The notes beneath the pieces were generated by a model. That model did no database searches. It saw only the letters and a program-made list of their open reading frames with translations, and was not told the DNA's origin. Below, one piece after another: positions 864 to 26,553 of a stretch of DNA of 32,000 bases. The DNA is taken from contig NZ_CP191777.1 of assembly GCF_050563455.1 (NCBI RefSeq), positions 3,603,845-3,635,844 of the forward strand, written 5' to 3'. The DNA is from Crocosphaera watsonii WH 8501 (lineage in GTDB: Bacteria > Cyanobacteriota > Cyanobacteriia > Cyanobacteriales > Microcystaceae). The first letter of the stretch is position 1; the number at the start of each line of letters is the position of its first letter. The translations under genes and the position numbers were made by a program.

Positions 864-1108
864 GACTACTATTTTAGCAAATAGAGAGAATCCCTGTCCA
901 TTAAGATATGTTATCATATACATGGGTACAGCACCGGAGTCTAATCGCTGTATCCCTTCATAGATAAGGGTTTCAAGGCTCTATAGTAGATATGTATGGG
1001 GGAAGTTCAGATATAGAATAATCATTCAATGGTCAGATGAAGATGACTGTTTTTTAGTCGCATTACCCGATTTTCCAGGTCAATATTGGCGAACTCATGG
1101 AGATACTT

Positions 1109-2801: not shown

Positions 2802-2989
2802 ACTTATGAAAAAGTAGTTGCTAACGCCAAAGAAGCAATAGAATCCCTAATTATTGCTTATGAAGCTGATAACGAACCCTTACCAAAACCCTTAATTGTT
2901 AATACTATTTTATGACTCTTAAAAAATATTCAAGAAGCAATTGCACTTTATCTAGAAGTTTTGCAAGAAAGAGGTTAATTAATTCCCGA

Positions 2990-6124: not shown

Positions 6125-6658
6125 ATGAATAAATCAATACTCAGTTTAGTTTTCAAACCCAACGTCACCCCTAACATCCCTTCCCAAACCGCTTGGGCTA
6201 TTTTTCGGATGGTTGTGGGTTTAATGATGATCCATAACGGACTAGATAAGCTCGGTAATATCGAAAGCTTTGCCGAAGCTTATGTATCTTATATTGGACT
6301 ACCTTTCCCTATTTTCTTTAGTTATGTAGCTGCATTTACTGAATTAATCGGTGCGCCTTTAGTTGCCATTGGTTTATTCACTCGTCCTGCTGCATTAGGG
6401 TTATTTTCAACCATGCTCGTCGCTATGTACCATCACATCTTAGTAGCAGGGTTTAGTGTTGCTTATCTCGAACTTTCTGCTATCTATGCAGTTTGTTTCC
6501 TTTTCTTCTTGATTAATGGTGCTGGTTTATTCTCCACCGATGCTTTAATCTTAAACTTGTTAGATAATCAAGCTTTAACCCAAAAAGCAAAGCAAATCAT
6601 GTTATTAGAAAAGTCTTATCAAGCTTCTTCTGATAAAAAAGAAGCACAAGTAAGATAG
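6125..6658 (+). CDS. DoxX-family membrane protein
   Basis: 177 aa and polytopic. IFRMVVGLMMIHNGLDKL...ELIGAPLVAIGLFTRPAALGL is the DoxX pattern. Confidence 0.65.
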   Translation: MNKSILSLVFKPNVTPNIPSQTAWAIFRMVVGLMMIHNGLDKLGNIESFAEAYVSYIGLPFPIFFSYVAAFTELIGAPLVAIGLFTRPAALGLFSTMLVAMYHHILVAGFSVAYLELSAIYAVCFLFFLINGAGLFSTDALILNLLDNQALTQKAKQIMLLEKSYQASSDKKEAQVR

Positions 6659-6673
6659 ATTTTTACAGTTTTG

Positions 6674-6715
6674 TTTGCTCTAAAATTCTGCTTTGAAGCG
6701 GACTTTTAGAGCAAA
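6674..6715. terminator. 12-bp-stem hairpin between convergent genes
   Basis: TTTGCTCTAAAA (6674-6685) pairs with TTTTAGAGCAAA (6704-6715) across an 18-nt loop, 16 nt after the DoxX stop. There is no clean U-tract on either strand. Confidence 0.35.
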
Positions 6716-6813
6716 AATTAATCTGATTACTATACTATAAAGTATAAGCAATCAATAACTACTAACATTTTTCTAGTTCTTTAGTTTCATCTGTTAATCT
6801 AGAAAGAGCATAA

Positions 6814-7146
6814 TTAAAAATAATGACAACCTAACTGACAATAAGCAGTGGGTTGAATAACTAAATAAAGATTCTCATCTTCTGCAATAGTTGATTGGTT
6901 CTGTTGAATAATTGTTTGTAACTCATTTCCCTCTTCAGGTACTAATAATTCAATATTAATTAATTCTGCTAACATCTCGGAGGGAATTTGTTGAAACTGT
7001 CCTTGTTCAATTAAACTCCAACTTTCTTCATCAATAACCCGAAACATTGCTGTTCTAGTTACATAAATTGCTCGTTTAGTTCGTTCTTCCACTTGATCAA
7101 ATAGAGGACGACTTACTCGATAGTAATGAGATAATTTGAGATTCAT
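6814..7146 (-). pseudogene. N-terminal remnant of a radical-SAM peptide-maturase-type gene
   Basis: The ORF ends ...LYLVIQPTAYCQLGCHYF*, so it stops inside the expected CxxxCxxC cluster motif (CQLGCHY then F-stop instead of Cys). About 95 residues precede the motif, the size and position of an N-terminal RiPP-recognition-type domain. No downstream continuation in any frame. Confidence 0.55.
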
Positions 7147-7272
7147 TATTTTTCCTCAAAATTGAATGAATAAAATTGATAGTAAGTCAAATGTTTTGAT
7201 TAACTTACTATCCCGGAATTTGCACAATTCAAGTTTAGTTAATTAGAAGGTTGCTACAGTTTTAAAGAAAAT

Positions 7273-7306
7273 GAGTTTGATAAAATCTCTGACAATTATC
7301 AAACTC
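7273..7306 (-). terminator. intrinsic-terminator-like hairpin after the small ORF
   Basis: GAGTTTGATAA (7273-7283) pairs with TTATCAAACTC (7296-7306). On the minus strand it starts 11 nt after the small-ORF stop and is followed by AUUUUCUUUAAAA. Confidence 0.4.
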
Positions 7307-7317
7307 TCAAAAGACTT

Positions 7318-7398
7318 TTAGCGTCCAAGTTGACCAATAGAATGGTTAATATGATTAGCACGATTAGTTAAAGTTTGACTAGGCTTTGCGAGTGCCAT
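7318..7398 (-). CDS. 26-aa small ORF (MALAKPSQTLTNRANHINHSIGQLGR), speculative
   Basis: Hand-translated. Same strand as the radical-SAM remnant and ~170 nt upstream of it, with its own hairpin. No recognisable RBS and no homology evidence. Confidence 0.2.
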   Translation of the reverse strand: MALAKPSQTLTNRANHINHSIGQLGR

Positions 7399-7629
7399 TA
7401 TTAGACATTTTTGTTAACCTATAAGTAGTTTATTTTTGCAAGGGCTAATCCTTATGTTAAAGCAGTTGAAACTCCTAGTAAGTGTTGTGTTGTACTTAAG
7501 CTTTAAGGCATAAGCCCTTGTTTTGTTATTAAACATATTAACCAACTCTTTAAGGGGATGTCAGTCCCAAATTTGAAGAAATTTTTTTTATTTTTAATTC
7601 TATTTAAGTAGATAAAAGTAGAAATAAAT

Positions 7630-9322
7630 AGGGTTTGCTGAATAAAAGCAAAACCCTATTCTTTAAAAGGTTACACCCATATTCGCGATCGCAAAAAAGA
7701 TCAGCTTTGTCGGCTACAAACCGCTATAATTGGTAGAAACACCTCCCAGTTGTTGGTCAAGAACAAATGTATCGAAAAGAGGAGCAACCTTTACCGCCCC
7801 CAGAAAAATTTGAATTACCTTTCGAGGGCAAATTGTCCCCCAATAATCGTTGGGTAATCATGGCAGAGTTGATACCTTGGGATGATTTTGAGGAAGAATA
7901 TGCTAAACTTTTTTCAGCAGAAAAAGGTGCGCCAGCCAAACTATTTAGAATGGCATTAGGGACATTAATTATTAAGGAAAAATTAGGAACAAGTGATAGA
8001 GAAACTATAGAACAGATTAGAGAAAATCCCTATCTACAATACTTTATAGGTTTAAATTGTTATCAACAAGAGCCACCACTGGAATCTTCAATGCTAGTTC
8101 ATTTTAGGAAAAGAATTGATGGAGAATTGATAAACAAAATCAATAAAAAAATAGTAAAAAGGGAAATAGACAAGAGTGATAAAGAAGTAAAAAAAAAGGA
8201 TTGTCTCCAAGAAAAAGGAGAAAAAATAAAAAATAAAGGTAAACTAATTTTAGATGCGACTTGTGCGCCAGCAGACATCAAATACCCAACGGATTTAGGC
8301 ATATTAAATCAAGCCAGAATTGAGACAGAAAGAATAATAGATAATCTTTATAAACCATTAAGAGTAAAATTGAGAAAAAAGCCGAGAACTTCTAGAAAAA
8401 TTGCTAGAAAGGAATACTTAAAAGTAGCTAAAAAACGAAAAGTATCTTATCAAGAAAGAAGAAAAGCTATCGGGAAACAGTTAAAATACCTTAAGAAAAA
8501 TTTAGGAAATATAGAAGACTTAATTCAAGCTGGGGCTTCCCTGGAAAATCTGAGTAAAAGACAGAAAAATTGTCTAGAGACTATCAAAAAAGTTTATGAA
8601 CAACAACAGTCAATGTGGGAGAATAAGACCCAGAGTGTTCCTCAAAGAATTGTAAGTTTAACTCAACCGCATATTCGTCCAATAGTGAGGGGAAAAGCAG
8701 GAAAACCAATAGAGTTTGGAGCTAAACTCTCAGTAAGCTGTGTAGATAACTATGTGTTTCTAGACAAAATAAGTTTGGAAAACTTCAATGAATCTTGTCA
8801 TTTAAAAGAACAAGTAGAAAAGTATAAAGAAACGTTTGGCTATTATCCCGAATCCGTCCATGTAGATAAAATTTATCGAACTAGGGAAAACAGAAATTGG
8901 TGTAAGGAAAGAGGGATAAGAATCAGTGGTCCGAAGTTAGGAAGACCTCCGAAAAATGTCAGTGAAGAAGAAAAGAAACAAGCCCACTCCGATGAATGCT
9001 TCCGTAATGCTATTGAGGGAAAGTTTGGACAAGCTAAACGAAGATTTAGCCTAAATCTCGTGATGACAAAACTCCCTGAAACCTCCATTACATCTATTGC
9101 TATTACATTTTTAGTTGTCAATCTTTCTAAACTTCTGAGGCAGTTTTTGTCGCTTTTTTTGTCCTTATTTACTAATAATAGAACAGGGGAACTCATCAAA
9201 CCGCCTTTTATTAATTTTGATTATACTTTAAACAATTTTTGTGTACTGAAACTTATTGATTTGTCAGAAAATTCTTGGTCAAAAGTGGCATAAATTTTGG
9301 AGAAACTTTTTCAGCAAACCCT
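7630..9322 (+). mobile_element. 1693-bp IS element, copy 2, TSD AAAT, intergenic
   Basis: IRs at 7630-7642 and 9310-9322. Direct AAAT at 7626-7629 and 9323-9326. Confidence 0.9.
7767..9293 (+). CDS. IS transposase, 508 aa (copy 2)
   Basis: Differs from the copy 1 protein at 6 residues (C/Y, V/I, Q/L, R/P, W/L, Y/C). The ORF is intact. Confidence 0.85.
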   Translation: MYRKEEQPLPPPEKFELPFEGKLSPNNRWVIMAELIPWDDFEEEYAKLFSAEKGAPAKLFRMALGTLIIKEKLGTSDRETIEQIRENPYLQYFIGLNCYQQEPPLESSMLVHFRKRIDGELINKINKKIVKREIDKSDKEVKKKDCLQEKGEKIKNKGKLILDATCAPADIKYPTDLGILNQARIETERIIDNLYKPLRVKLRKKPRTSRKIARKEYLKVAKKRKVSYQERRKAIGKQLKYLKKNLGNIEDLIQAGASLENLSKRQKNCLETIKKVYEQQQSMWENKTQSVPQRIVSLTQPHIRPIVRGKAGKPIEFGAKLSVSCVDNYVFLDKISLENFNESCHLKEQVEKYKETFGYYPESVHVDKIYRTRENRNWCKERGIRISGPKLGRPPKNVSEEEKKQAHSDECFRNAIEGKFGQAKRRFSLNLVMTKLPETSITSIAITFLVVNLSKLLRQFLSLFLSLFTNNRTGELIKPPFINFDYTLNNFCVLKLIDLSENSWSKVA

Positions 9323-9398
9323 AAATAGATGAAAGTAGAACTGAAAATTATGGGTTAAAACAAAAATAAAACTGATTTGGACTACATAAGTCTATATT

Positions 9399-12080: not shown

Positions 12081-12931
12081 ATTTTACTTAATATATAAAC
12101 CCGATCTTCATTGATTTTTAAGGACTCCTTAAATTAATCTTAAAACTAAGTTCAAGATTAAGAATATTGTTAAAAAAAAGTTAATAAATTGTTAAAAAAA
12201 TAGACATATTGTGGGTCATGGTATGGAGTATAGTTTGGAGAGTGAGAGATATTTCCAGAAAAAGTTTTCCAACCAATTAACAATAATCAAGGAGCCACAT
12301 GAAAATCTTTAAGGTTCTTCGAGTTACAGTGATTAAGGTCAGCGAATCACCCCTAACCTTATCTATTCAAGCAGAGGGTCTTGCAGCAACATCAGGATGG
12401 ACAAATCCTCGTTTAGATAACTCCGCCGATCCTAACCCTGATGATTCTATCTTGGAATTTAACTTTGATGCAGATAGACCATCAGGCATTTCCTTACCTC
12501 AGTTAACGCCTATTATGGCTACTGTTGATTTTGAGCCAAGTAACGGGGCCGATGCAGTAATCGTATCCGCTAGGATCAACAGCATTACTGTTCACGCAGG
12601 AGAATTTTTGAATCCTGGTGATAGTCCTGCACAACCCACTACCTTAGCATTCGGAGAAGAAGATCCAGGACCCACAACTCGTGCATTGGGAGAAGAAGGT
12701 CCAAGTCCAGACTTTACCACTCAAGCATTCGGAGAGGAAGAACCTTCTAGTCGTGCATTAGGAGAGGAAGGTCCACCTCAACCTCCTCAACCCACTACCT
12801 ACGCATTCGGAGAAGAAGAAGATCCTAGAGTTACTACCCTCGCATTAGGAGAAGAAGGTGAACCTACTAGTGCAGCTTGGCGAAAGTAATCCACCAGATT
12901 TTTACAGAAACTTTCGTGACTAGCCACGACA

Positions 12932-14219: not shown

Positions 14220-14475
14220 CTGGTGGATTATTTTTGCTAAGCTGCACTAGTCGTGCATTAGGAGAGGAAGGTCCACCTCAACCTCCTCAACCCACAACTC
14301 GTGCAGTAGGAGAAGAAGAACCTCAATTTACTACCTACGCATTGGGAGAGGAAGAACCCTCTACTCGTGCAGCGGGAGAAGAAAGTCAACCCACAACTCG
14401 TGCAGTAGGGGAAGAACAACCTGAATTTACTACTTTAGCCATAGGAGAAGAAAGTTCTCCCTTTGGACGGTATTA

Positions 14476-16856: not shown

Positions 16857-19328
16857 ATGTTTGAACGCTTTACAGAAAAAGCCATCAAGGTAATAATGCT
16901 GGCGCAAGAGGAAGCTCGTCGCCTCGGGCATAACTTCGTCGGGACAGAACAAATTCTTCTTGGCCTCATCGGTGAAGGTACCGGAGTCGCCGCCAAAGTT
17001 CTCAAATCAATGGGGGTTAACCTCAAAGACGCTCGCATTGAAGTTGAGAAAATCATTGGTCGGGGTTCAGGTTTCGTCGCTGTGGAAATTCCTTTTACCC
17101 CAAGAGCAAAACGAGTGCTGGAACTCTCCTTAGAGGAAGCCAGACAGTTAGGACACAACTATATCGGTACTGAACACCTTCTCTTAGGTCTAATTAGAGA
17201 AGGGGAAGGGGTGGCCGCTAGGGTTCTCGAAAACCTCGGTGTTAACCTCTCCAAAGTCAGAACCCAAGTTATTCGTCAGTTAGGTGAAACCGCAGAGGTT
17301 GCCGCCGGTGGTGGTACACCAGGACGCACAAAAACCCCCACTCTCGATGAATTCGGTTCCAACTTAACCCAGTTAGCCGGTGAGGGTCAACTCGACCCCG
17401 TAGTTGGACGACAAAAAGAAATCGAGCGTGTGATCCAAATTCTCGGTCGTCGTACCAAAAATAACCCCGTTCTCATCGGTGAACCCGGTGTGGGTAAAAC
17501 AGCGATCGCAGAAGGGTTAGCTCAACGCATCGCTAACAAAGATATTCCCGACATTCTCGAAGAAAAACGAGTCGTTACCCTCGATATCGGTTTATTGGTC
17601 GCCGGAACCAAATACCGTGGGGAATTTGAAGAACGTCTCAAGAAAATTATGGACGAAATTCGTCAAGCTGGAAACGTTATCCTAGTTATTGACGAAGTTC
17701 ATACCCTCATCGGTGCTGGTGCTGCTGAAGGGGCCATCGACGCTGCTAATATCCTCAAACCTGCTCTAGCACGGGGCGAATTACAATGTATTGGGGCAAC
17801 CACCCTCGATGAGTACCGTAAGCACATCGAACGGGATGCAGCCCTAGAACGTCGTTTCCAACCCGTAATGGTGGGTGAACCCTCCGTTGATGAAACCGTA
17901 GAAATTCTCTTTGGACTACGGGAACGCTACGAGCAGCATCATAAGCTAAAAATCTTAGATGAAGCTTTAGATGCAGCAGCGAAACTTTCTGATCGCTATA
18001 TTTCTGACCGTTATCTTCCTGATAAGGCCATCGATCTTATCGATGAAGCAGGATCACGGGTTCGCTTAATTAACTCTCAACTGCCTCCTGCGGCCAAGGA
18101 ATTAGACAAAGAACTACGCACTATCTTGAAGCAAAAAGATGACGCAGTTCGCTCCCAAGACTTCGATCGCGCTGGAGAATTGCGGGATCAAGAAATGGAT
18201 ATTAAAGAGCAAATTCGCTCTATTTCCACCGCTAAGAAAGGAGAAGGAGACAGCGCAGAACCCTTTGTGGATGCTGAAGAAATCGCCCAAATCGTGGCTT
18301 CTTGGACTGGTGTTCCTGTGAACAAGTTGACGGAAACAGAATCCGAAAAACTTCTCCACATGGAAGATACTTTACATCAACGCTTGATCGGTCAAGAGGA
18401 CGCAGTTAAAGCTGTTTCTCGGGCTATTCGTCGGGCAAGAGTAGGCTTAAAGAACCCCAACCGTCCTATTGCTAGTTTCGTCTTCTCTGGACCTACTGGT
18501 GTGGGTAAAACCGAGTTAACCAAGTCCTTAGCAGCGTACTTCTTCGGGTCAGAAGAAGCCATGATTCGTCTGGATATGTCCGAATACATGGAACGTCATA
18601 CGGTTTCTAAGTTGATCGGTTCTCCTCCAGGATATGTGGGTTATAACGAAGGGGGACAACTCACGGAAGCTGTTCGTCGTCGTCCCTATACCGTTGTTTT
18701 ATTCGATGAAATCGAAAAAGCACACCCCGATGTCTTCAATATGCTGCTACAAATCTTAGAAGACGGTCGTTTAACCGACGCTAAGGGACGTACAGTGGAC
18801 TTTAAGAACACCTTATTAATCATGACCTCTAACATCGGTTCCAAGGTCATTGAGAAGGGTGGCGGTGGCCTCGGATTTGAGTTTGAAGACGACCAAAATG
18901 AGGCACAGTACAACCGTATACGTAACCTAGTTAACGAAGAATTGAAGCAATACTTCAGACCTGAGTTCCTCAACCGTTTAGATGAGATTATCGTCTTCCG
19001 TCAGTTGAACAAAGAAGAAGTCAAGGAGATTTCCGAAATTCTTCTCAAGGAAGTATTTGCACGTTTAACCGAGAAAGAGATTACTCTACAAGTTACCGAT
19101 AAATTCAAGGAACGCTTGGTAGAAGAAGGGTATAACCCTGCTTACGGTGCAAGGCCGTTACGTCGTGCTATTATGCGTCTCTTAGAGGATGTCTTAGCAG
19201 AGGAAATTCTTTCCGGACGAGTTGGCGAAGGCGATGTCGCTGTAGTTGATATCGGCGAAGATGGCAAAGTTCAAGTGGTTTCTAATGAGAAACAACAACC
19301 AGTTTTAGCTAAAGCTACCGACTCGTAA
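16857..19328 (+). CDS. clpC: ATP-dependent Clp protease ATP-binding subunit ClpC
   Basis: Duplicated Clp_N repeats ([37 protein letters not shown]...), two AAA+ modules (GEPGVGKT and GPTGVGKT) and a UVR-like linker. 823 aa. Confidence 0.95.
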
Positions 19329-19351: not shown

Positions 19352-19386
19352 AACGGTAGAAGTTTCACTCTTCTGCCGTTTTTTCT
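19352..19386 (+). terminator. rho-independent terminator of clpC
   Basis: AACGGTAGAAG-tttcact-CTTCTGCCGTT (one G-U pair) followed by TTTTTC, 24 nt after the clpC stop. Confidence 0.7.
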
Positions 19387-19418
19387 TGAATAGAGTAGTA
19401 AATAATTACCACAAAACT

Positions 19419-21059
19419 ATGGATTCTATTCGACTACAAAGATTACGTTGTTTATCAGATACCGGGGAAATTAAAATTAAACCCATTACGATACTTGTGG
19501 GAGAAAATAGTTCAGGGAAAAGTACCTTTTTGCGTTTCTTTCCTTTACTTAAGCAAAGTGTTGAGTCTAGAACCATTGGACCGGTTTTATGGAATGGTCG
19601 ATTAGTGGATTTCGGCAACTATAAAGATGCTCATCAAAAGCATTCTGAAGAGGATATTTGTTTAGAGTTTAAATTTGAAATTCCTTCCTTTCCAAAAAAT
19701 AATGCTTAAAAAAAAAATACAGACGAAGAAATAATATTCTGGTCAAGTAGAAGACCATTAATATTTAATCCCATTGATGTTTCTGTTATTTTACAGCTTT
19801 TAGAAGAGAAAAAACAACAGATTACTATAATACATAAATTGATCATAAAATTTGCCGATTCTGTAATTCAACTTGAAATAAACAAAGAGAATAAAATCTC
19901 TTGCTTTTTAGTAAATTCCTTTGATATTTTAGAAATGTTAGGTGATAAATATATTTTGTTTGATTTGGGTCATAAATTTATGTTACCGCAAGTAAGAGAA
20001 TTTTCAAATAATCAAGAGAAAATTCTCAACTTAGGAGTTTTGAACAGAGTCAATAGAACAAGATTTATTTTTCAACAATTATTCAGTAAACTTTTTCAAA
20101 TAACAAAAAATAAAGCCCATAAGTTTACATCAGAAACTACTATTTTCAAAATGATATCTTCATTTGTCATTGGAGATTCAGCAACTATGCTTCAAGATAT
20201 TAAAAATAATCCTTTTTCTACCAAAACTTGGAAGAAAAGCGTAAACTCATGGACAATAGAATCTAATGAATTTAGGCAATTTAGAGATTTAATTATCGCT
20301 AACTCAGTACCTTGGTTACTAGAAGAATGTGATGATTTATTAGCTAATTTTGCTACTAAAATTAGTTATATGGGTCCAGTTAGAGCAACAGCAGAGCGTT
20401 ACTATAGAACACAAGATTTAGCAGTAGATGAGGTAGATTATCAGGGAACTAATTTACCAATGTTTCTCCGAAATTTAACACATGGAGAATTGAAAGAATT
20501 TAGGACTTGGACACTTAATAATTTTGGTTTTGAACCTCTAATCACAACAAGTCAAGGATTAATTTCTTTAGAAATACGACCTTCTAAAGATTCTAAAGAA
20601 TCTTTTAATGTTGCTGATACAGGATTTGGTTTTTCTCAAATTTTGCCTATTATTACTCAGTTATGGTTTCTGAGTGAGTTTACTAAGACTTCTTCAAGAA
20701 TTCGTCCTCCTGGTTTCCGATATAATAGTCCTGTTATTTTCCCTATTGAACAGCCTGAATTACATTTACATCCCCGTTTACAAGGAGTTTTAGCTGAAGT
20801 ATTTGTTAAATCAATTGAAGCAGCAAAAGAAAGAGGGATTGATTTACGTTTAGTCATTGAAACCCATAGCGAAGTTCTAATTAATAAATTAGGATATCTG
20901 GTTGCAGAAAAACACATTTTACCAGAAGATATTAATATAGTATTATTTTATAAATCTGATCAATCTAAAGAAATAAAAGTCAGGACAAGTCAATTTGATT
21001 CTGAGGGTTATTTAAGCGAAGATTGGCCATTAGGATTTTTTGATATGGATCTTATTTAA
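19419..21059 (+). pseudogene. ABC/SMC-type AAA ATPase (AriA-like; AAA_15/21-type with WP-GFF C-terminus) carrying one in-frame TAA
   Basis: Track ORFs 19386-19709 and 19839-21059 are in the same frame. My translation of 19710-19838 is stop-free, so TAA 19707-19709 (followed by A-run 19708-19717) is the only interruption of a 546-codon gene. Walker A is LVGENSSGKST. The distal motifs are YMGPVRA, ADTGFGFSQILPII, IEQPELHLHP (Walker B-like), ETHSEVL and DWPLGFFD. The likely start is ATG 19419. Confidence 0.7.
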
Positions 21060-21060
21060 T

Positions 21061-22196
21061 ATGTTGATTAAAATTGATGTTTCTGTTGTCCAGAGTTTTG
21101 AAAATTCTAATTCATGGCCAGATGATCTTATTATAGCTCTTGAAAATTTAGCACTTGCAAGACGTGAAGGCAAACATTCAATAATTGCAGATTTAAACAC
21201 TTTAAAAATAATTGCAAAATGTTCAGACTTATCTAAAAATGCCAAAATTTCTTATAAAAAAATATTAAATGACAGACCTAAATTTAAAGCTTATCTTTCC
21301 CATGTCTCTAGATATATTGAAATTATTCATCCTTGTAATGTTAATAAAATAGATTCTAATTCAGGAAAAGATATTATTAAATTACCTTACACTTTTTTCA
21401 ATGATTCAGAAACAATACAAAAATCTATACTGTTGTGTAAAAATTTACAAGATACTGAATTTTATAAAATAATCGCTGAAACTTTTTGTAAATGGAAACG
21501 ATTAAATATTAAACCAAAATTTGAACCATCCTTAGGAGGAGGAAATACAATATCAACTGTATATGAGAATATTCAAAATAAGAAAAAAAGATTGTGTCTA
21601 TGTATTGTTGATAGTGATAAGTTATCTCCTAATAGTAGTCTAGGTTCTACAGCTAGAAATATTAAACAAAAAGATGATAATACTTCCGTTACGACGCTAC
21701 TTTATATTTTACCCGTTCGTGAACTTGAAAACTTAATCCCTCTTTCAATTTTATCTGAACTTATGTCTAAAAATGGAGATAGAGAAAACCCTTTTAAACA
21801 ATTAGAAAAAATTGAAGAAAGTTCAGTAAAAGAAATACGAAATTTTTTAGATATCAAAGAAGGAACAAGACTAAAAAAATAGTTAATGAACCGAGTTCAG
21901 TCAAAGATTTTTGGAAAGATAAACTTGATAAACTGCCAAATTATTCCAATGATATTGATGAATGGTGTTATGAAAATTGGTCGTGTTGTGATCCTGATCC
22001 TAAGAAAAAATCATGTAAGTGTAAGATTTCATTAGGTTTTGGTCAAAAAATCCTAGAAAATACAATTACTTATCTCAATACTCAATCTTCATTTACAATT
22101 CCTTCTATGGTTGAAGAGTCTTTACATTCTGAATGGAAAAATATTGGACAACTTATGCTAAATTGGGGCTTCGCAGATTCTCCAATTCGTGTTTAA
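21061..22196 (+). pseudogene. Toprim/DUF4435-like putative effector (AriB-like), frameshifted at an A7 run
   Basis: ATG 21061 follows the ATPase stop by 1 nt. The frame ends at TAG 21880-21882. The +1-shifted frame is open from 21879 to TAA 22194-22196 (IVNEPSSVKDFWKDKL...GFADSPIRV*). A8 instead of A7 (21873-21879) would give one 378-aa protein. Motif order: LLCKNLQDTEFYKII - GGGNTIS - LCLCIVDSDK - LPVRELENLIP. Confidence 0.5.
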
Positions 22197-22335: not shown

Positions 22336-22462
22336 ATTGCACAAGATGCTTAAGGGAGAGAGACTAAACTCTCCAACCTTACCCACTACTTGAGATGTTT
22401 ATTCAGCATCTCTTCTAACTGTTGTTTGGTGATCGCTCCTTCCTGTTTGGCCAATAGTCCTT
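22336..22462 (-). repeat. displaced copy of the thioredoxin 3' end plus downstream hairpin (direct repeat A)
   Basis: By my manual alignment, about nine-tenths identical to 26426-26553. The minus strand reads GLLAKQEGAITKQQLEEMLNKHLK*, against ELLAKHEGAITRPQLEEMLNKHLK* in the intact gene. Confidence 0.85.
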
Positions 22463-22853
22463 TTTAACAATTAACAATGGTCATTCCGAGGTACGAGGAA
22501 TCTCCTTAACTTCTTGATCATTATAGGTTTTTGTTATCTTCTATAATTGTTGATTAAGTGCTTTAACTAATAAATGTACTGTGGTTGATGGATTATCTTG
22601 ACCAGGATTAGATTTATGATATTGTTTCAGTAACTTTTCAGAATTTCTAATAGCAGTTTCTTGTCTATCCAATAACTCATCATAGATAGTATCACTATTT
22701 TTTGTGTACTGTTTACCTAATAATGTATTTAACTTCTTCAGGTACTCTTTTCGAGGAATAGGTGAATTTAAAAACTCAAAGTGTAAGACATACCATAACT
22801 CAAAAGCTTCGTTAGAATAAGCAACCTCAAATCCCTGCTTTTCAGCCTTATTT

Positions 22854-24546
22854 AGGGTTTGCTGAAAAAGTTTCTCCAAAATTTATGCCACTTTTGACCA
22901 AGAATTTTCTGACAAATCAATAAGTTTTAGTACATAAAAATTGTTTAAAGTATAATCAAAATTAATGAAAGGCGGTTTGATGAGTTCCCCTGTTCTATTA
23001 TTAGTAAATAAGGACAAAAAAAGCGACAAAAACTGCCTCAGAAGTTTACAAAGATTGACAACTAAAAATGTAATAGCAATAGATGTAATGGAGGTTTCAG
23101 GGAGTTTTGTCATCACGAGATTTAGGCTAAATCTTCGTTTAGCTTGTCCAAACTTTCCCTCAATAGCATTACGGAAGCATTCATCGGAGTGGGCTTGTTT
23201 CTTTTCTTCTTCACTGACATTTTTCGGAGGTCTTCCTAACTTCGGACCACTGATTCTTATCCCTCTTTCCTTACACCAATTTCTGTTTTCCCTAGTTCGA
23301 TAAATTTTATCTACATGGACGGATTCGGGATAATAGCCAAACGTTTCTTTATACTTTTCTACTTGTTCTTTTAAATGACAAGATTCATTGAAGTTTTCCC
23401 AACTTATTTTTTCTAGAAACACATAGTTATCTACACAGCTTACTGAGAGTTTAGCTCCAAACTCTATTGGTTTTCCTGCTTTTCCCCTCACTATTGGACG
23501 AATATGCGGTTGAGTTAAACTTACAATTCTTTGAGGAACACTCTGGGTCTTATTCTCCCACATTGACTGTTGTTGTTCATAAACTTTTTTGATAGTCTCT
23601 AGACAATTTTTCTGTCTTTTACTCAGATTTTCCAGGGAAGCCCCAGCTTGAATTAAGTCTTCTATATTTCCTAAATTTTTCTTAAGGTATTTTAACTGTT
23701 TCCCGATAGCTTTTCTTCTTTCTTGATAAGATACTTTTCGTTTTTTAGCTACTTTTAAGTATTCCTTTCTAGCAATTTTTCTAGAAGTTCTCGGCTTTTT
23801 TCTCAATTTTACTCTTAATGGTTTATAAAGATTATCTATTATTCTTTCTGTCTCAATTCTGGCTTGATTTAATATGCCTAAATCCGTTGGGTATTTGATG
23901 TCTGCTGGCGCACAAGTCGCATCTAAAATTAGTTTACCTTTATTTTTTATTTTTTCTCCTTTTTCTTGGAGACAATCCTTTTTTTTTACTTCTTTATCAC
24001 TCTTGTCTATTTCTCTTTTTACTATTTTTTTATTGATTTTGTTTATCAATTCTCCATCAATTCTTTTCCTAAAATGAACTAGCATTGAAGATTCCAGTGG
24101 TGGCTCTTGTTGATAACAATTTAAACCTATAAAGTATTGTAGATAAGGATTTTCTCTAATCTGTTCTATAGTTTCTCTATCACTTGTTCCTAATTTTTCC
24201 TTAATAATTAATGTCCCTAATGCCATTCTAAATAGTTTGGCTGGCGCACCTTTTTCTGCTGAAAAAAGTTTAGCATATTCTTCCTCAAAATCATCCCAAG
24301 GTATCAACTCTGCCATGATTACCCAACGATTATTGGGGGACAATTTGCCCTCGAAAGGTAATTCAAATTTTTCTGGGGGCGGTAAAGGTTGCTCCTCTTT
24401 TCGATACATTTGTTCTTGACCAACAACTGGGAGGTGTTTCTACCAATTATAGCGGTTTGTAGCCGACAAAGCTGATCTTTTTTGCGATCGCGAATATGGG
24501 TGTAACCTTTTAAAGAATAGGGTTTTGCTTTTATTCAGCAAACCCT
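22854..24546 (-). mobile_element. 1693-bp IS element, copy 3 (inverted), TSD ATTT
   Basis: IRs at 22854-22866 and 24534-24546. Direct ATTT at 22850-22853 and 24547-24550. Confidence 0.9.
22883..24409 (-). CDS. IS transposase, 508 aa (copy 3)
   Basis: Intact ORF. Four residue differences from copy 2 (D/E, L/W, S/C, C/Y). Confidence 0.85.
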   Translation of the reverse strand: MYRKEEQPLPPPEKFELPFEGKLSPNNRWVIMAELIPWDDFEEEYAKLFSAEKGAPAKLFRMALGTLIIKEKLGTSDRETIEQIRENPYLQYFIGLNCYQQEPPLESSMLVHFRKRIDGELINKINKKIVKREIDKSDKEVKKKDCLQEKGEKIKNKGKLILDATCAPADIKYPTDLGILNQARIETERIIDNLYKPLRVKLRKKPRTSRKIARKEYLKVAKKRKVSYQERRKAIGKQLKYLKKNLGNIEDLIQAGASLENLSKRQKNCLETIKKVYEQQQSMWENKTQSVPQRIVSLTQPHIRPIVRGKAGKPIEFGAKLSVSCVDNYVFLEKISWENFNESCHLKEQVEKYKETFGYYPESVHVDKIYRTRENRNWCKERGIRISGPKLGRPPKNVSEEEKKQAHSDECFRNAIEGKFGQAKRRFSLNLVMTKLPETSITSIAITFLVVNLCKLLRQFLSLFLSLFTNNRTGELIKPPFINFDYTLNNFYVLKLIDLSENSWSKVA

Positions 24547-24801
24547 ATTTATTGTACTGTTAAAGTTTTGAAAATTATCTTTATCAAAAACACACCAAAC
24601 TTGATCATAGTCATCTTCTTTTTTATATTCAATTGTTTTATTTACTAAGATATCAGGATCTTTGTTCAATCCTTTAACTTTTATAACCTTACGAGGAACA
24701 CGAAAACACTCAAAGTAGTTTTTTCTGTTTCTTCTCCTCCACAAACAATTAAAAATAGTTGTTTAGGCTCTCTTGTGTTTTTCTTTCGACTTGAATATCC
24801 T

Positions 24802-26106
24802 CTAGGATTTCTCTCTGTTTTCGCCATTAGAATTAATTAGTGTAGTTAAATCTCCAATATAGGGTATTGCACCATATCGACCTTTGATGTAATCATTTTC
24901 AAAGGCAGCATCATCACTAATTTTATATTCTACTAAAGAATATAAATCACTTGCACCATATCTATCTTTTTCAGTAAACCAGATTTGATCCCTACGAAAA
25001 AGTTTAGGACTGAGTAAGTTTGTGTCATGAGTCATCACAATTAGTTGACCATTATTAGGGTTGGTTTCATTAGAGTTAAACAATTCAATAATAGTACGAC
25101 TAATTAAAGGATGTAATCTTGCATCAAATTCATCAATTACCAAAGTTTGACTATTTTTTAAAGTATCAAAAAGTGGTCCAGCTAAAGCAAAAGCTTTCTG
25201 CGTACCCTCGGATTCATCTTCTGTAAAATCAAAGGTTTCAGTAGAGATAAACTTATTCTCAGAATCAAATTTACGATGTTTGGTTGTAATCAAAGTTCCT
25301 TTTCCTCCTGAGTCTCTAAGTATCATTTTTCTAAATTCTTGAGGTAAATCATCAGAAAGTTGATCTTCAGTAACTTCTATTTGAGTAACGTTAATGTCAT
25401 CAATTCCTAAATCTAGCTTTTTAATTAAGTTGATGATTTCGTTTTTATTTTCATTCTCCATTAAACACTTTACTGTAAAAGAACGATAAGAAGAATCATT
25501 TAAACCAGAAATCACCTGTAATGAATTAGTTAACCAGTTAAGAATATCTTCCGCAATTTTAATATTAAACTGAGCAGATACAGATAAGAAAAGAGCATTA
25601 TCTCTTGTCAGTTTTTCAACTCCATTTGCTTGATATCTCTTAATAGTGTTTATTTGACCTTCTTTTCTCTCAAAAAGCTTGCTTTCCCTAACATTGGGAA
25701 TGTAATATAACCATTCTGAGACAATTTTTTTTGTAGTTGCTTCAAACCCGTAACGATATTTAATCCCATCCAATAAAAAAACAATTTCAAAGAAAGAAGG
25801 ATTATTCTCAGTTTCAAGACTCAATCTAAAAGGTTCTATGTCTATATCATCTGTGCTTTGAGTCTGTCTAGATGAATTAATCATAAACCATTTCATAAAA
25901 GCTAAAGCTTTAATGAGATTACTTTTTCCACTAGCATTTGCATCATAAATAGCAGCACTTTTGAGCAATTTTAAATCATCATCAACAGCAAAAAGATTAT
26001 CATTATGAATAGTATTATTATCAGCAGTAAGATCGGCCGCTACCATACTAAAAGTAACAACATCTTTAAATGATCTATAATTTCCTACACTGAATTCAAT
26101 TAACAT
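24802..26106 (-). CDS. AAA_21-type ATPase (RloA/AbiLi-like)
   Basis: 434 aa. MLIEFSVGNYRSFKD..., Walker A DANASGKSN, Walker B LVIDEFDARLHP and H-loop MTHDTNLL. Its 3' end overlaps the RloB-like start by 26 nt. Confidence 0.75.
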   Translation of the reverse strand: MLIEFSVGNYRSFKDVVTFSMVAADLTADNNTIHNDNLFAVDDDLKLLKSAAIYDANASGKSNLIKALAFMKWFMINSSRQTQSTDDIDIEPFRLSLETENNPSFFEIVFLLDGIKYRYGFEATTKKIVSEWLYYIPNVRESKLFERKEGQINTIKRYQANGVEKLTRDNALFLSVSAQFNIKIAEDILNWLTNSLQVISGLNDSSYRSFTVKCLMENENKNEIINLIKKLDLGIDDINVTQIEVTEDQLSDDLPQEFRKMILRDSGGKGTLITTKHRKFDSENKFISTETFDFTEDESEGTQKAFALAGPLFDTLKNSQTLVIDEFDARLHPLISRTIIELFNSNETNPNNGQLIVMTHDTNLLSPKLFRRDQIWFTEKDRYGASDLYSLVEYKISDDAAFENDYIKGRYGAIPYIGDLTTLINSNGENREKS

Positions 26107-26425: not shown

Positions 26426-26553
26426 ATTGTACAAAATGCTTAAGGGGGAGAGATTGAACTCTCCAACCTTACCCACTACTTGAGATGTTTATTAAGCATC
26501 TCTTCTAACTGTGGTCTGGTGATCGCTCCTTCGTGTTTGGCCAATAGTTCCTT
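26426..26553 (-). repeat. thioredoxin 3' end plus downstream hairpin (direct repeat B, part of the intact gene)
   Basis: Partner of 22336-22462, in the same orientation, 4090 bp away. Confidence 0.85.

What the first reader, a model, noticed from the sequence alone, without database searches (positions are those of the whole stretch)
19419..22196. PARIS-like two-gene module (ABC-type ATPase + Toprim/DUF4435-like protein) downstream of clpC, both genes carrying single lesions
Seen: a 546-codon ATPase gene with an N-terminal Walker A (GENSSGKST) and distal ABC-type motifs is followed 1 nt later by a 378-codon gene. That second gene has a Toprim-like motif series. The region is visibly more AT-rich than the flanking clpC. 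Established knowledge, from memory: PARIS (AriA ABC ATPase + AriB DUF4435 Toprim nuclease) and several OLD/Gabija-type systems share this architecture. Inference: this is a PARIS-like or related but divergent anti-phage pair. It is inactivated by one in-frame TAA (19707) and one A-run frameshift (21873-21879). The effector is longer than I remember AriB being and has a ~110-residue N-terminal extension, so it may represent an undescribed variant.
Basis: partly seen in the sequence, partly recalled or inferred. Interest (0 to 1): 0.7.

Follow-up and report, generated by a model that had tools for sequence, protein, structure and literature searches.

The report
Decayed ATPase–nuclease defence gene pair
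Just downstream of clpC in Crocosphaera watsonii WH 8501 lie the broken remains of a two-gene module, an ABC-type ATPase plus a probable metal-dependent nuclease, from a widespread uncharacterised family of likely anti-phage systems that resembles PARIS in layout but is not a member of it.

Summary
Gene A (19419-21059, 546 codons) has an in-frame TAA at 19707-9. Gene B (21061-22196, 378 codons after repair) is frameshifted in the A-run at 21873-9. Both lesions are real alleles: the same truncated product occurs on at least 23 independent contigs.

B also carries E127K at the family's invariant glutamate, and A has derived missense changes, including A442P in the Walker B strand.

The PARIS reading is only partly right. 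A scores best against Menshen NsnB (1.9e-45) and the untested PADLOC candidate PDC-M55A, not against a specific AriA model. B matches no Pfam, PHROG or NCBIfam model, including DUF4435, and no solved structure significantly. Its only hit is a weak one to PDC-M55B.

B's invariant residues (E127, D131, D184, D186, E223) do follow the order and spacing of AriB's published TOPRIM metal site, on a predicted β-α-β-α-β-α-β core.

The B family is large (2,291 clusters at 50% identity). An A-type ATPase lay directly upstream of B in all 33 non-Crocosphaera loci with upstream DNA, and no third gene is conserved. Hosts span many phyla, a Pf-like phage and a megaplasmid.

Verdict: a pseudogenised member of a PARIS/Menshen-like, uncharacterised two-gene candidate defence family.

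The parts
19352..19380 (+). Terminator-like hairpin plus T-run that ends clpC and separates it from the module
   Evidence: 11-bp stem, 5 GC pairs, T-rich tail. Seen directly in the sequence.
19419..21059 (+). Gene A pseudogene: NsnB-like/AAA_15 ABC ATPase, 546 codons
   Evidence: Pfam AAA_15 5e-20 and AAA_21 3e-12. PADLOC NsnB 1.9e-45, PDC-M55A 3.7e-39, HEC-03B 3.6e-26. Intact 546-aa orthologue in other Crocosphaera.
19500..19526 (+). Walker A motif GENSSGKST (A residues 28-36)
   Evidence: G28, N30, S31, G33, K34 and S35 are invariant in the A family.
19707..19709 (+). Nonsense codon: TTA (Leu97) -> TAA through T->A at 19708
   Evidence: Shared with metagenome contig L012. A is called as 96-aa and 406-aa fragments in WH 8501 and in SRA assemblies.
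19689..20318 (+). Variable insert of the ATPase (A residues ~91-300), a candidate trigger-sensing region (inference)
   Evidence: Column conservation is 0.21-0.41 here against 0.5-0.77 in the ATPase lobes, across 33 A proteins.
20616..20639 (+). Signature-like DTGFGFSQ motif (GxG in place of the ABC SGG motif, as described for NsnB)
   Evidence: D400, G402, F403, G404, S406 and Q407 are invariant. The NsnB feature is described in PMC12065111.
20733..20774 (+). Walker B/D-loop VIF[P]IEQPELHLHP, with the window-specific A442P change at 20742
   Evidence: The outgroups have Ala at 442.
20919..21044 (+). C-terminal DUF3696-like tail of A (residues 501-542)
   Evidence: Pfam DUF3696 at 19.3 bits, below the cut-off of 22. 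Orthologues score 18-21 bits.
21061..22196 (+). Gene B pseudogene (two frames): 378-aa effector from a family that Pfam does not cover
   Evidence: PADLOC PDC-M55B 5e-8 is the only hit. The family has 2,291 clusters at 50% identity. The AF2 model of the orthologue P0002 has pLDDT 92.4.
21061..21405 (+). N-terminal α/β domain of B (~115 aa), which AriB lacks; fold unassigned
   Evidence: Secondary structure of the AF2 model. The only conserved residues are G37 and H39. AriB's catalytic Glu is residue 26.
21439..21441 (+). AAA (Lys127) in place of the invariant catalytic-type Glu127 (GAA in all relatives)
   Evidence: E127 is invariant in 35 and 90 sequences. It is the counterpart of AriB E26, whose E26A mutant is inactive.
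21610..21618 (+). D184-S185-D186, a DxD motif after predicted strand β3
21721..21732 (+). E221-L-E223-N224 motif after predicted strand β4
   Evidence: E223 is invariant or near-invariant. It sits 96 residues after E127, as AriB E122 sits 96 residues after E26.
21873..21879 (+). A7 run: loss of one A (A8 in intact relatives) shifts the frame at codon 273
   Evidence: Reproduced on at least 23 contigs.
21966..22022 (+). Cys cluster (WCx5C(C)x8CxC), a possible zinc knuckle in the C-terminal region of B
   Evidence: C300, C306, C312 and C314 are near-invariant. Metal binding is inferred.
22109..22115 (+). Site where other Crocosphaera strains carry a 174-bp MITE-like insertion that replaces B's last ~30 aa
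   Evidence: L002-L007.

Best explanation
This is a pseudogenised copy, in Crocosphaera watsonii WH 8501, of a self-contained two-gene module.

The parts:
- Gene A is an NsnB-like ABC (AAA_15) ATPase with a hypervariable insert and a DUF3696-like tail.
- Gene B is its obligate partner. It has an N-terminal α/β domain, then a Toprim-like two-metal nuclease core (E127, D131, GGG, D184-x-D186, E221-x-E223-N), then a Cys-rich helical C-terminal region.

Likely mechanism (inferred by analogy with PARIS, Septu and the Menshen NsnB-NsnC model):
- An ATPase oligomer holds the nuclease inactive, probably through the ATPase tail and B's N-terminal domain.
- The variable insert senses a phage cue.
- ATP binding or hydrolysis then releases or activates the nuclease.
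- The nuclease cuts RNA or DNA and aborts the infection.

State in this genome: the module cannot work. A stops at codon 97, so Walker A is separated from the rest of the protein, and it also carries A442P. B has lost its catalytic-type Glu (E127K) and is frameshifted at codon 273.

Shown: gene structure, lesions, family size, strict A-B linkage, motif conservation and the predicted topology. Inferred: nuclease activity, defence role, regulation and substrate.
For: - Structure and lesions.
- A's family placement: PADLOC NsnB 1.9e-45, PDC-M55A 3.7e-39, HEC-03B 3.6e-26. A profile of seven A proteins hits the Thermus OLD ATPase at 2e-8.
- B's conserved residues: E127, G161 and D186 are invariant, and D131, D184, E223, N224, D264 and K266 near-invariant, in 90 sequences with 23% mean column identity.
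- B's predicted fold: AF2 models with pLDDT 92.4 and 91.4 place E127 after β1 and DSD after β3 of a β-α-β-α-β-α-β unit.
- Match to AriB: its published site is E26, D30, D88, E90, E122 (PMC11464382). B's residues come in the same order at offsets +4, +57/+59, +96, against +4, +62/+64, +96 in AriB.
- Fold searches: the only recurrent theme among the weak hits is Toprim-containing proteins. These are OLD C-terminal region 6nk8 (prob 0.54), retron Eco2 (0.51) and a phage primase (0.57).
- Linkage: an A-family ORF abuts B in 28 of 28 genome loci with upstream DNA, and also in L008, L009, L011, L013 and L014. No third gene is conserved.
- Context suggests defence. The neighbours include an AbiL system, TA modules, DUF4297 on a B. 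thuringiensis megaplasmid, and the accessory end of a Pf-like phage.
- Related systems: PDC-M55 is a guilt-by-embedding defence candidate. HEC-03 (ABC ATPase plus PIN protein) was validated experimentally (bioRxiv 10.1101/2024.01.29.577857).
Against: - No member of this family has been tested.
- No profile or fold search gives a significant link between B and any characterised nuclease. Pfam, PHROGs and NCBIfam give nothing. PDB sequence profiles give nothing relevant. Foldseek finds no hit at E<=1e-3. hhalign against RloB gives E=0.37.
- The PDC-M55B match is weak and partial (25-33 bits).
- The N-terminal domain fold and the A-B contact are not established.
- In the Crocosphaera/Cyanothece lineage the pair sits at a fixed chromosomal site next to clpC, which is less typical of mobile defence cargo.
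Confidence: 0.7

Rival explanations
1. It is a true, if divergent, PARIS system (AriA plus AriB, class 4 OLD). AriA would sequester the DUF4435 Toprim nuclease AriB and release it on sensing an anti-restriction protein, and AriB would then cleave tRNA.
For: - Same gene order: ATPase first, then a separate effector.
- The acidic residues of B copy the order and spacing of AriB E26, D30, D88, E90 and E122.
- PADLOC 'AriA' models hit A at 8.7e-25.
Against: - DUF4435 (PF14491) and the PADLOC AriB models hit none of the B proteins tested.
- The 'AriA' hits match A with the same coordinates as its Pfam AAA_15/AAA_21 hits, and they rank below NsnB and PDC-M55A.
- The A profile finds OLD, Rad50 and PtuA in the PDB but not AriA.
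- AriB chains are absent from the top 50 Foldseek hits.
- B has an extra ~100-aa N-terminal domain and a Cys cluster, and A has a DUF3696-like tail.
Confidence: 0.07
2. It is the remnant of a three-gene Menshen system (NsnA-NsnB-NsnC) that has lost its DUF262 sensor gene NsnA.
For: - A's best PADLOC hit is NsnB.
- A shows the NsnB idiosyncrasies: a GxG signature, Arg where the Q-loop would be, and a DUF3696-like tail.
- B is a two-domain protein, like NsnC with its N-terminal adaptor and C-terminal nuclease.
Against: - Across 33-34 loci from many phyla, only A and B are conserved. No third gene and no DUF262 neighbour was seen in the loci that carry Pfam labels.
- This makes the two-gene state the family's normal form, not a loss.
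- B's nuclease core is not one of the described NsnC Toprim types (DUF4276, RloB) by Pfam.
Confidence: 0.08
3. The conserved pair has a non-defence role, for example a Rad50/SbcC-like ATPase plus nuclease for DNA repair, a plasmid or prophage maintenance (addiction) module, or a cell-cycle function like the one reported for the archaeal OLD-family ATPase Cran1.
For: - A stable chromosomal position next to clpC in Crocosphaera and Cyanothece.
- The phage 62-2 annotators labelled the ATPase 'Rad50'.
- A non-defence OLD-family ATPase exists (PMC12796447, listed).
- No defence assay exists for this family.
Against: - Patchy distribution across at least 10 phyla, with different neighbours in each.
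- Presence on a filamentous phage and a megaplasmid, next to AbiL, TA modules and DUF4297.
- Both Crocosphaera lineages carry changes in B (frameshift or MITE insertion), so its intact form appears dispensable.
- A's closest models are all defence or candidate-defence ATPases.
Confidence: 0.12
4. The genes are intact in the organism, and the stop and frameshift are assembly or sequencing errors in homopolymer-rich, AT-rich DNA.
For: Both lesions touch A-runs (A10 at 19708-17 and A7 at 21873-79), a classic error context.
Against: - The nonsense lesion is a substitution, not a change in run length.
- The identical truncated 273-aa product, and the split of A into 96-aa and 406-aa fragments, recur on at least 23 contigs from separate SRA runs.
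- Both lesions also occur on a metagenome contig that differs from the window at 10 SNPs.
- Extra derived missense changes fit relaxed selection.
Confidence: 0.02

Closest known systems
PADLOC candidate PDC-M55 (PDC-M55A plus PDC-M55B). This is an untested 'phage defence candidate' found by guilt-by-embedding in BREX, DISARM and type I RM loci (Payne et al., bioRxiv 10.1101/2024.01.29.577857).
   Same: It is the only library entry in which both genes hit the two components of one system. A hits PDC-M55A at 3.7e-39 and B hits PDC-M55B at 5e-8. Orthologues from a Bacillus plasmid and from cyanobacteria do the same.
   Different: - The matches are partial: A covers only profile positions 174-402 of 421, and B only 142-253 of 315, at 25-33 bits.
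- The phage 62-2 and P0060 B proteins do not hit at all.
- The window's family is therefore a relative of PDC-M55, not clearly the same family.
- PDC-M55 has no experimental support or described mechanism.
Menshen NsnB-NsnC module (Millman 2022; Li et al., NAR 2025, PMC12065111)
   Same: - A's best hit is NsnB (1.9e-45).
- A has the GxG signature, the Arg-for-Gln loop and a DUF3696-like C-terminal tail.
- The effector is bipartite, with an N-terminal non-catalytic domain followed by a nuclease. Some NsnC proteins use Toprim-fold nucleases.
   Different: - No NsnA (DUF262/ParBDB) gene in any of the 33-34 loci.
- DUF3696 scores below the Pfam cut-off.
- B's nuclease core is not DUF4276, RloB or BECR.
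- PIN-likeness of B's N-terminal domain is not shown.
PARIS (AriA/AriB, class 4 OLD; Rousset 2022; Burman 2024, PMC11464382)
   Same: - A two-gene ABC ATPase plus a separate Toprim-type effector.
- The same order and near-identical spacing of the five acidic metal-site residues.
- Loss of the first Glu (E26A in AriB, E127K here) is expected to kill activity.
   Different: - No DUF4435 or AriB profile match, and no specific AriA match.
- ~100 extra N-terminal residues and a Cys cluster in B.
- A different ATPase subfamily.
- Trigger and substrate are unknown.
HEC-03 (ABC ATPase plus PIN-domain protein; validated, with both genes required; bioRxiv 10.1101/2024.01.29.577857)
   Same: The ATPase model 'HEC-03B' hits A at 3.6e-26. 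It is a two-gene ATPase plus nuclease-type partner system with proven defence activity.
   Different: Its partner is a VapC-like active PIN RNase, not a Toprim-like protein. The similarity of the ATPases is confined to the C-terminal lobe.
AbiL (AbiLi AAA_21 ATPase plus AbiLii/RloB Toprim), the convergent neighbour at 22541-26106
   Same: The same general design: an ABC ATPase plus a small Toprim-fold protein. Here it lies 350 bp away and is also inactivated (by an IS).
   Different: B has no RloB (PF13707) match. hhalign between the B and RloB profiles is not significant (E=0.37), although the E and DxD motifs align in register.
OLD-family nucleases, classes 1-3 (P2 Old, Thermus OLD 6P74, GajA)
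   Same: The A profile's best solved relative is the Thermus OLD ATPase (2e-8). B's best Toprim-type fold hints are OLD C-terminal regions (6nk8, 6njv).
   Different: In OLD proteins the ATPase and Toprim are fused in one chain. TOPRIM-OLD (PF20469) does not hit B. The B profile against P2 Old gives nothing.

Membership tests
PARIS (AriA/AriB) | The effector AriB belongs to DUF4435 (PF14491) | tested here: not met
   No DUF4435 hit for the repaired B (max E 1), for 35 members (max E 10) or for 90 members (max E 1). No PADLOC AriB hit.
PARIS (AriA/AriB) | The ATPase is specifically of the AriA type | tested here: not met
   The PADLOC 'AriA' hits (8.7e-25 and 1.6e-13) match A with the same coordinates as its Pfam AAA_15/AAA_21 hits, and rank below NsnB, PDC-M55A and HEC-03B. 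The A profile does not retrieve AriA from the PDB at E<=1.
PARIS (AriA/AriB) | Adjacent co-oriented genes, ATPase first and a separate nuclease second | tested here: met
PARIS (AriA/AriB) | A two-metal TOPRIM acidic constellation (AriB E26, D30, D88, E90, E122) | tested here: met
   At the motif level only. E127, D131, D184, D186 and E223 are invariant or near-invariant, in the same order and with similar offsets. In the window copy E127 is Lys.
PARIS (AriA/AriB) | Activation by anti-restriction proteins and cleavage of tRNA | not testable with these tools
   Needs experiments.
Menshen (NsnABC) | An NsnA gene (ParB-DUF262 plus ParBDB) directly upstream of the ATPase | tested here: not met
   Upstream of A in the window is clpC. 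No DUF262 was seen in the loci that carry Pfam labels. No third conserved gene family in 34 loci.
Menshen (NsnABC) | NsnB-type ABC ATPase with a C-terminal DUF3696 helix, a GxG signature and Arg in place of the Q-loop Gln | tested here: inconclusive
   PADLOC NsnB 1.9e-45. GFGFS and VRATAERYYR are invariant. DUF3696 scores only 18-21 bits against a cut-off of 22, and is absent from more distant family members.
Menshen (NsnABC) | NsnC-type effector: an N-terminal inactive PIN-like domain plus a C-terminal nuclease domain | tested here: inconclusive
PADLOC PDC-M55 | Both proteins match the PDC-M55A and PDC-M55B models | tested here: inconclusive
   A scores 3.7e-39 but partially. B scores 5e-8, also partially. 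Some family members miss PDC-M55B altogether.
Toprim fold (general) | A β-α-β-α-β-α-β core with Glu after β1 and DxD after β3 | tested here: met
   In the prediction only. AF2 secondary structure places E127 after strand 122-126 and D184-D186 after strand 179-183.
Toprim fold (general) | Significant structural or profile similarity to a solved or curated Toprim domain | tested here: inconclusive
OLD family, classes 1-3 | ATPase and Toprim fused in one polypeptide, with a TOPRIM-OLD (PF20469) match | tested here: not met
   There are two genes, and no PF20469 hit.
AbiL | The partner protein is RloB/AbiLii (PF13707) | tested here: not met
   B has no RloB or AbiLii hit. The neighbouring pair is the real AbiL system.

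The most novel reading that the evidence does not exclude
The pair represents an experimentally untouched, very widespread defence family (at least 2,291 B clusters at 50% identity, at least 10 phyla, carried by a filamentous phage and a megaplasmid).

- Its effector would be a previously unrecognised branch of Toprim nucleases, carrying its own N-terminal docking domain and a Cys4 knuckle.
- It would act as a 'sensor-less Menshen': the NsnB-like ATPase senses phage through its hypervariable insert and gates the nuclease.
- B is altered in both Crocosphaera lineages: a frameshift with a stop in A and E127K in one, and a 174-bp MITE-like insertion that replaces its conserved C-terminus in the other. 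This would reflect selection against a costly or autoimmune effector rather than drift.
Probability: 0.4. Interest if true: 0.6.

Novelty: new variant of a known kind. Interest (0 to 1): 0.4.

Why it matters
For this genome, the result is a clean annotation. Two pseudogenes and an IS-disrupted AbiL system form a decayed mini defence island next to clpC in the transposase-rich WH 8501 strain. Three natural haplotypes record stepwise loss of the module.

For the field, the value lies in the family rather than in this copy. Gene B belongs to a large protein family that Pfam, PHROGs and NCBIfam do not cover. It is strictly coupled to an NsnB-like ABC ATPase. Its conserved residues reproduce the AriB/OLD two-metal site, although no profile or fold search links it significantly to any characterised nuclease.

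Characterising an intact pair would add a branch to the ABC-ATPase/Toprim group of defence systems (OLD, Gabija, PARIS, AbiL, MADS, Menshen). It would also test whether the Menshen transducer-effector pair can work without its DUF262 sensor.

Tried and rejected
1. **DUF4435, AriB, RloB and OLD-Toprim membership by HMM.** Nothing was found for the repaired B or for the 35 and 90 homologues scanned. PHROGs and NCBIfam also gave nothing.
2. **B profiles against PDB sequences.** No relevant hit. A weak NDUFA10/deoxynucleoside-kinase hit (E~1e-3) over residues 39-139 does not involve the conserved motifs, and I treated it as chance.
4. **hhalign.** The B core against P2 Old as a single sequence gave nothing. 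Against an RloB alignment it gave E=0.37, not significant, although the E and DxD motifs aligned in register.
5. **Obtaining an AriB sequence for a direct profile comparison.** The PARIS paper has no held supplement. Scanning P4-satellite hotspots in E. coli genomes turned up other cargo (an AAA_13 ATPase, Kiwa, RM, GmrSD) but no PARIS locus. I abandoned this.
6. **Sequencing-error explanation.** Rejected.
7. **A third conserved gene such as NsnA.** Rejected.
8. **A promoter between the clpC terminator and A's start.** The consensus scan found none, so transcription is unresolved.
9. **Exact-pattern scan of the GTDB genome collection for the window's B sequence.** It found nothing. The source was identified instead through the protein index.
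Full report
**1. The observation**

The window comes from Crocosphaera watsonii WH 8501 (GCA_000167195.1, contig AADV02000002.1).

clpC (16857-19328) ends with a terminator-like hairpin at 19352-19380. Gene A then starts at ATG 19419 and runs in one frame to TAA 21057-59, 546 codons in all. Its only interruption is an in-frame TAA at 19707-09.

One nucleotide after A's stop, gene B starts at ATG 21061. Frame 0 ends at TAG 21880-82, and the open frame continues in frame +2 to TAA 22194-96. Restoring one A to the A7 run at 21873-79 gives a 378-aa protein.

GC is 0.26-0.31 over the pair against 0.45-0.50 in clpC. Other accessory stretches of the window are just as AT-rich.

**2. The lesions are real, and there are more of them**

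Other Crocosphaera contigs (L002-L007) share the synteny hisG-clpC-A-B. They encode an intact 546-aa A and an unshifted B.

A base-by-base comparison shows the following:
- The stop is a single T->A change at 19708 (TTA Leu97 -> TAA).
- The frameshift is A8 -> A7.
- Seven further substitutions fall in the pair, six of them non-synonymous.

Polarising these changes with Cyanothece sp. BG0011 and more distant homologues gives the derived states in the window lineage:
- In A: Q303E, A442P (inside the Walker B strand VIFAIEQPELHLHP) and D511Y.
- In B: E127K, at a residue that is invariant in 35 and in 90 homologues.

The exact truncated 273-aa B product, K127 included, and the split of A into 96-aa and 406-aa fragments recur on at least 23 contigs. 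These include assemblies of independent sequencing runs.

A 119-kb metagenome contig (L012) shares the stop and the frameshift but still has E127. It differs from the window at 10 positions in 5.7 kb, and 7 of the 10 lie in the pair.

So sequencing error is excluded, and the order of events can be read: the stop and the frameshift came first, then E127K.

The other Crocosphaera lineage keeps A intact. Its B carries a 174-bp MITE-like element with terminal inverted repeats, inserted at window position 22109-15. The insertion replaces the last ~30 residues, including the near-invariant W352 and W362. B is therefore altered in every Crocosphaera haplotype I could find.

**3. What the proteins are**

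*Gene A.* A is an ABC-type ATPase: Pfam AAA_15 at 5e-20, AAA_21 at 3e-12, and a sub-threshold DUF3696 hit on the last ~45 residues (19.3 bits against a cut-off of 22).

In PADLOC its best models are NsnB of Menshen (1.9e-45), PDC-M55A (3.7e-39) and HEC-03B (3.6e-26). The 'AriA' hits match A with the same coordinates as its Pfam AAA_15/AAA_21 hits, and they rank lower.

A profile of seven A proteins finds the Thermus OLD ATPase (2e-8), retron Eco8 OLD, Rad50 and PtuA in the PDB, but not AriA.

A also shows features described for NsnB (PMC12065111): a GxG signature (DTGFGFSQ) and an Arg-rich segment where the Q-loop would be. Both are invariant in the family.

Residues ~91-300 form a poorly conserved insert between well-conserved ATPase lobes.

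*Gene B.* B matches nothing in Pfam, NCBIfam or PHROGs. This holds for the repaired protein and for the 35 and 90 homologues scanned individually.

Its only library hit is a weak, partial match to PADLOC PDC-M55B (5e-8). Some relatives miss even that model.

B nevertheless belongs to a large family. A profile search of 1.84 billion cluster representatives found 2,291 clusters at E<=1e-3 and 1,179 at E<=1e-30, nearly all ~370 aa and full length.

**4. Is B a Toprim nuclease?**

Across 90 sequences with 23% mean column identity, the conservation pattern is as follows:
- Invariant: E127, G161, D186.
- Conserved in at least 90%: D131, G159, G160, C181, D184, E223, N224, D264, K266, G268.
- Also conserved in at least 90%: the cysteines C300, C306 and C312, plus W352 and W362.

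AlphaFold models of the Cyanothece orthologue are confident. The full-length model has pLDDT 92.4 and pTM 0.90, and the model cropped to residues 112-371 has pLDDT 91.4.

These models give a β-α-β-α-β-α-β unit. E127 follows strand 1, GGG follows strand 2, D184-S-D186 follows strand 3, and E221-x-E223-N follows strand 4. This is the Toprim arrangement.

The published two-metal site of AriB is E26, D30, D88, E90 and E122, and E26A abolishes PARIS function (PMC11464382). B's residues come in the same order at offsets +4, +57/+59 and +96, against +4, +62/+64 and +96 in AriB.

Nothing significant supports the assignment beyond this:
- Foldseek against the PDB and BFVD gives no hit at E<=1e-3. AriB is not in the top 50.
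- The only recurring theme among the weak hits is Toprim-containing proteins: OLD C-terminal region 6nk8 (probability 0.54), retron Eco2 (0.51) and a phage DnaG-type primase (0.57).
- hhalign against an RloB alignment is not significant (E=0.37), although it aligns E with E and DSD with DRD.

I therefore rate 'Toprim-fold metal-dependent nuclease' as likely, at about 0.75, but not demonstrated.

The ~115-residue N-terminal α/β domain has no assigned fold. By position it corresponds to the adaptor (inactive PIN) domain of Menshen NsnC. That domain is predicted to dock between the DUF3696 tails of NsnB. The correspondence here is an inference.

**5. The pair is an obligate, self-contained module**

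An A-family ORF lies immediately upstream of B, on the same strand and abutting or overlapping it, in every case examined:
- all 28 GTDB-genome loci that had upstream sequence;
- Phormidium, two metagenome contigs and one further genome;
- the Pf-like filamentous Pseudomonas phage 62-2, between its repressor and the genome end;
- a Bacillus thuringiensis megaplasmid, next to a DUF4297 gene.

Hosts include Cyanobacteria, Chloroflexota, Proteobacteria, Firmicutes, Planctomycetota, Verrucomicrobiota, Acidobacteriota and Sericytochromatia.

Clustering all neighbouring ORFs shows that only A (33 loci) and B (34 loci) are conserved. Nothing like NsnA accompanies them.

Neighbours are often TA modules (BrnT/A, PIN, MazE). 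In the window itself, the convergent neighbour is an AbiL system. Its AbiLi gene scores 4e-105, and its AbiLii/RloB gene is split by a 1.7-kb IS.

**6. Mechanism**

The best-supported reading is a two-component, abortive-infection-type defence. The ABC ATPase oligomer both senses infection, probably through the hypervariable insert, and restrains the nuclease. Nucleotide-dependent release or activation then lets the two-metal nuclease cut nucleic acid.

This rests on analogy with three sources:
- PARIS, in which AriA sequesters AriB and releases it on trigger binding;
- the predicted NsnB4-NsnC2 assembly;
- HEC-03, an ABC ATPase plus PIN protein pair whose ATPase model hits A and which was shown to need both genes for defence.

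Substrate, trigger and stoichiometry are unknown.

In WH 8501 none of this can operate. A is cut at codon 97, so Walker A is on a 96-aa peptide. B lacks the first metal-site Glu and loses its C-terminal 105 residues to the frameshift.

**7. Comparison with known systems, and novelty**

The pair works like PARIS in outline, but it fails PARIS's defining membership tests (DUF4435 effector, AriA-type ATPase).

It resembles the Menshen NsnB-NsnC module most closely on the ATPase side, but it lacks NsnA in every locus.

Its nearest catalogued entry is PDC-M55. That is one of 145 untested candidates found by 'guilt-by-embedding', and the match is weak for B.

I therefore class it as a new variant of a known kind (ABC-ATPase plus Toprim-type effector defence pairs). 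It is not a member of PARIS, and it is not categorically new.

This particular copy is a pseudogene pair, which limits its interest. The family behind it is large, absent from the curated libraries I searched and untested, which is the reason to follow it up.

Noticed in passing
window 22541-26106 (-): The convergent neighbour is an AbiL system. AbiLi ATPase lies at 24802-26106 (PADLOC 4e-105). AbiLii/RloB is split by an IS into a C-terminal part (22541-22879) and an N-terminal part (~24547-24828). It is intact in other Crocosphaera contigs and in metagenome contig L012. Together with the A-B pair, this makes a small defence island in which both systems are dead in WH 8501.
   Followed up: partly
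window 1108-2802, 7629-9323, 22853-24547: Three 99.4-99.6% identical copies of a ~1.7-kb IS encoding a 508-aa transposase (DDE_Tnp_1_2/DUF772 by the precomputed Pfam labels) within 32 kb. One copy disrupts AbiLii.
   Followed up: partly
L002:9057-9230 (insertion site = window 22109-22115): A 174-bp MITE-like element with terminal inverted repeats (CCCGCATTTCTCACAAA...TTTGTGAGAAATGCGGG) is inserted in the 3' end of gene B in all six other Crocosphaera contigs examined. It gives the 368-aa protein annotated as 'MULTISPECIES hypothetical protein [Crocosphaera]'. No copy of it occurs in the window.
   Followed up: partly
window 22336-22462 and 26426-26553: A 128-bp intergenic repeat (92% identical) flanks the AbiL pair on both sides. 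A second short repeat lies at 12747-12857 and 14247-14354 (85%). Their nature is unknown.
   Followed up: no
L013 (Pseudomonas phage 62-2, OR621022, record 172-2808): A Pf-like filamentous phage carries the same A-B pair, annotated 'Rad50 ATPase' and 'putative OLD family nuclease', in its accessory region next to the repressor. This would be a natural system in which to test function.
   Followed up: partly
window ~21966-22022 (B residues 303-321): A near-invariant cysteine cluster (C-x5-C-x5..20-C-x-C) lies in the C-terminal region of the B family, in the lowest-confidence part of the AF2 model. It may be a zinc knuckle.
   Followed up: no
B-family profile positions 39-139: The 90-sequence B profile gives borderline hits (E~1e-3) to mitochondrial NDUFA10 and deoxynucleoside-kinase chains in the PDB sequence search. 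The hits do not involve the conserved motifs and are probably chance, but they remain unexplained.
   Followed up: no
L001 (Cyanothece sp. BG0011) 6353-9116: An intact orthologous pair (A 74% and B 76% identical) sits at the same place, directly after clpC, and is followed there by cobN instead of AbiL. The pair therefore predates the split between Crocosphaera and Cyanothece sp. BG0011, while AbiL is absent from this locus in BG0011.
   Followed up: partly
window 19386-19418: Only ~38 nt separate the clpC terminator from A's start codon, and the consensus scan finds no promoter there. Transcription of the pair (read-through or a non-consensus promoter) is unresolved.
   Followed up: no
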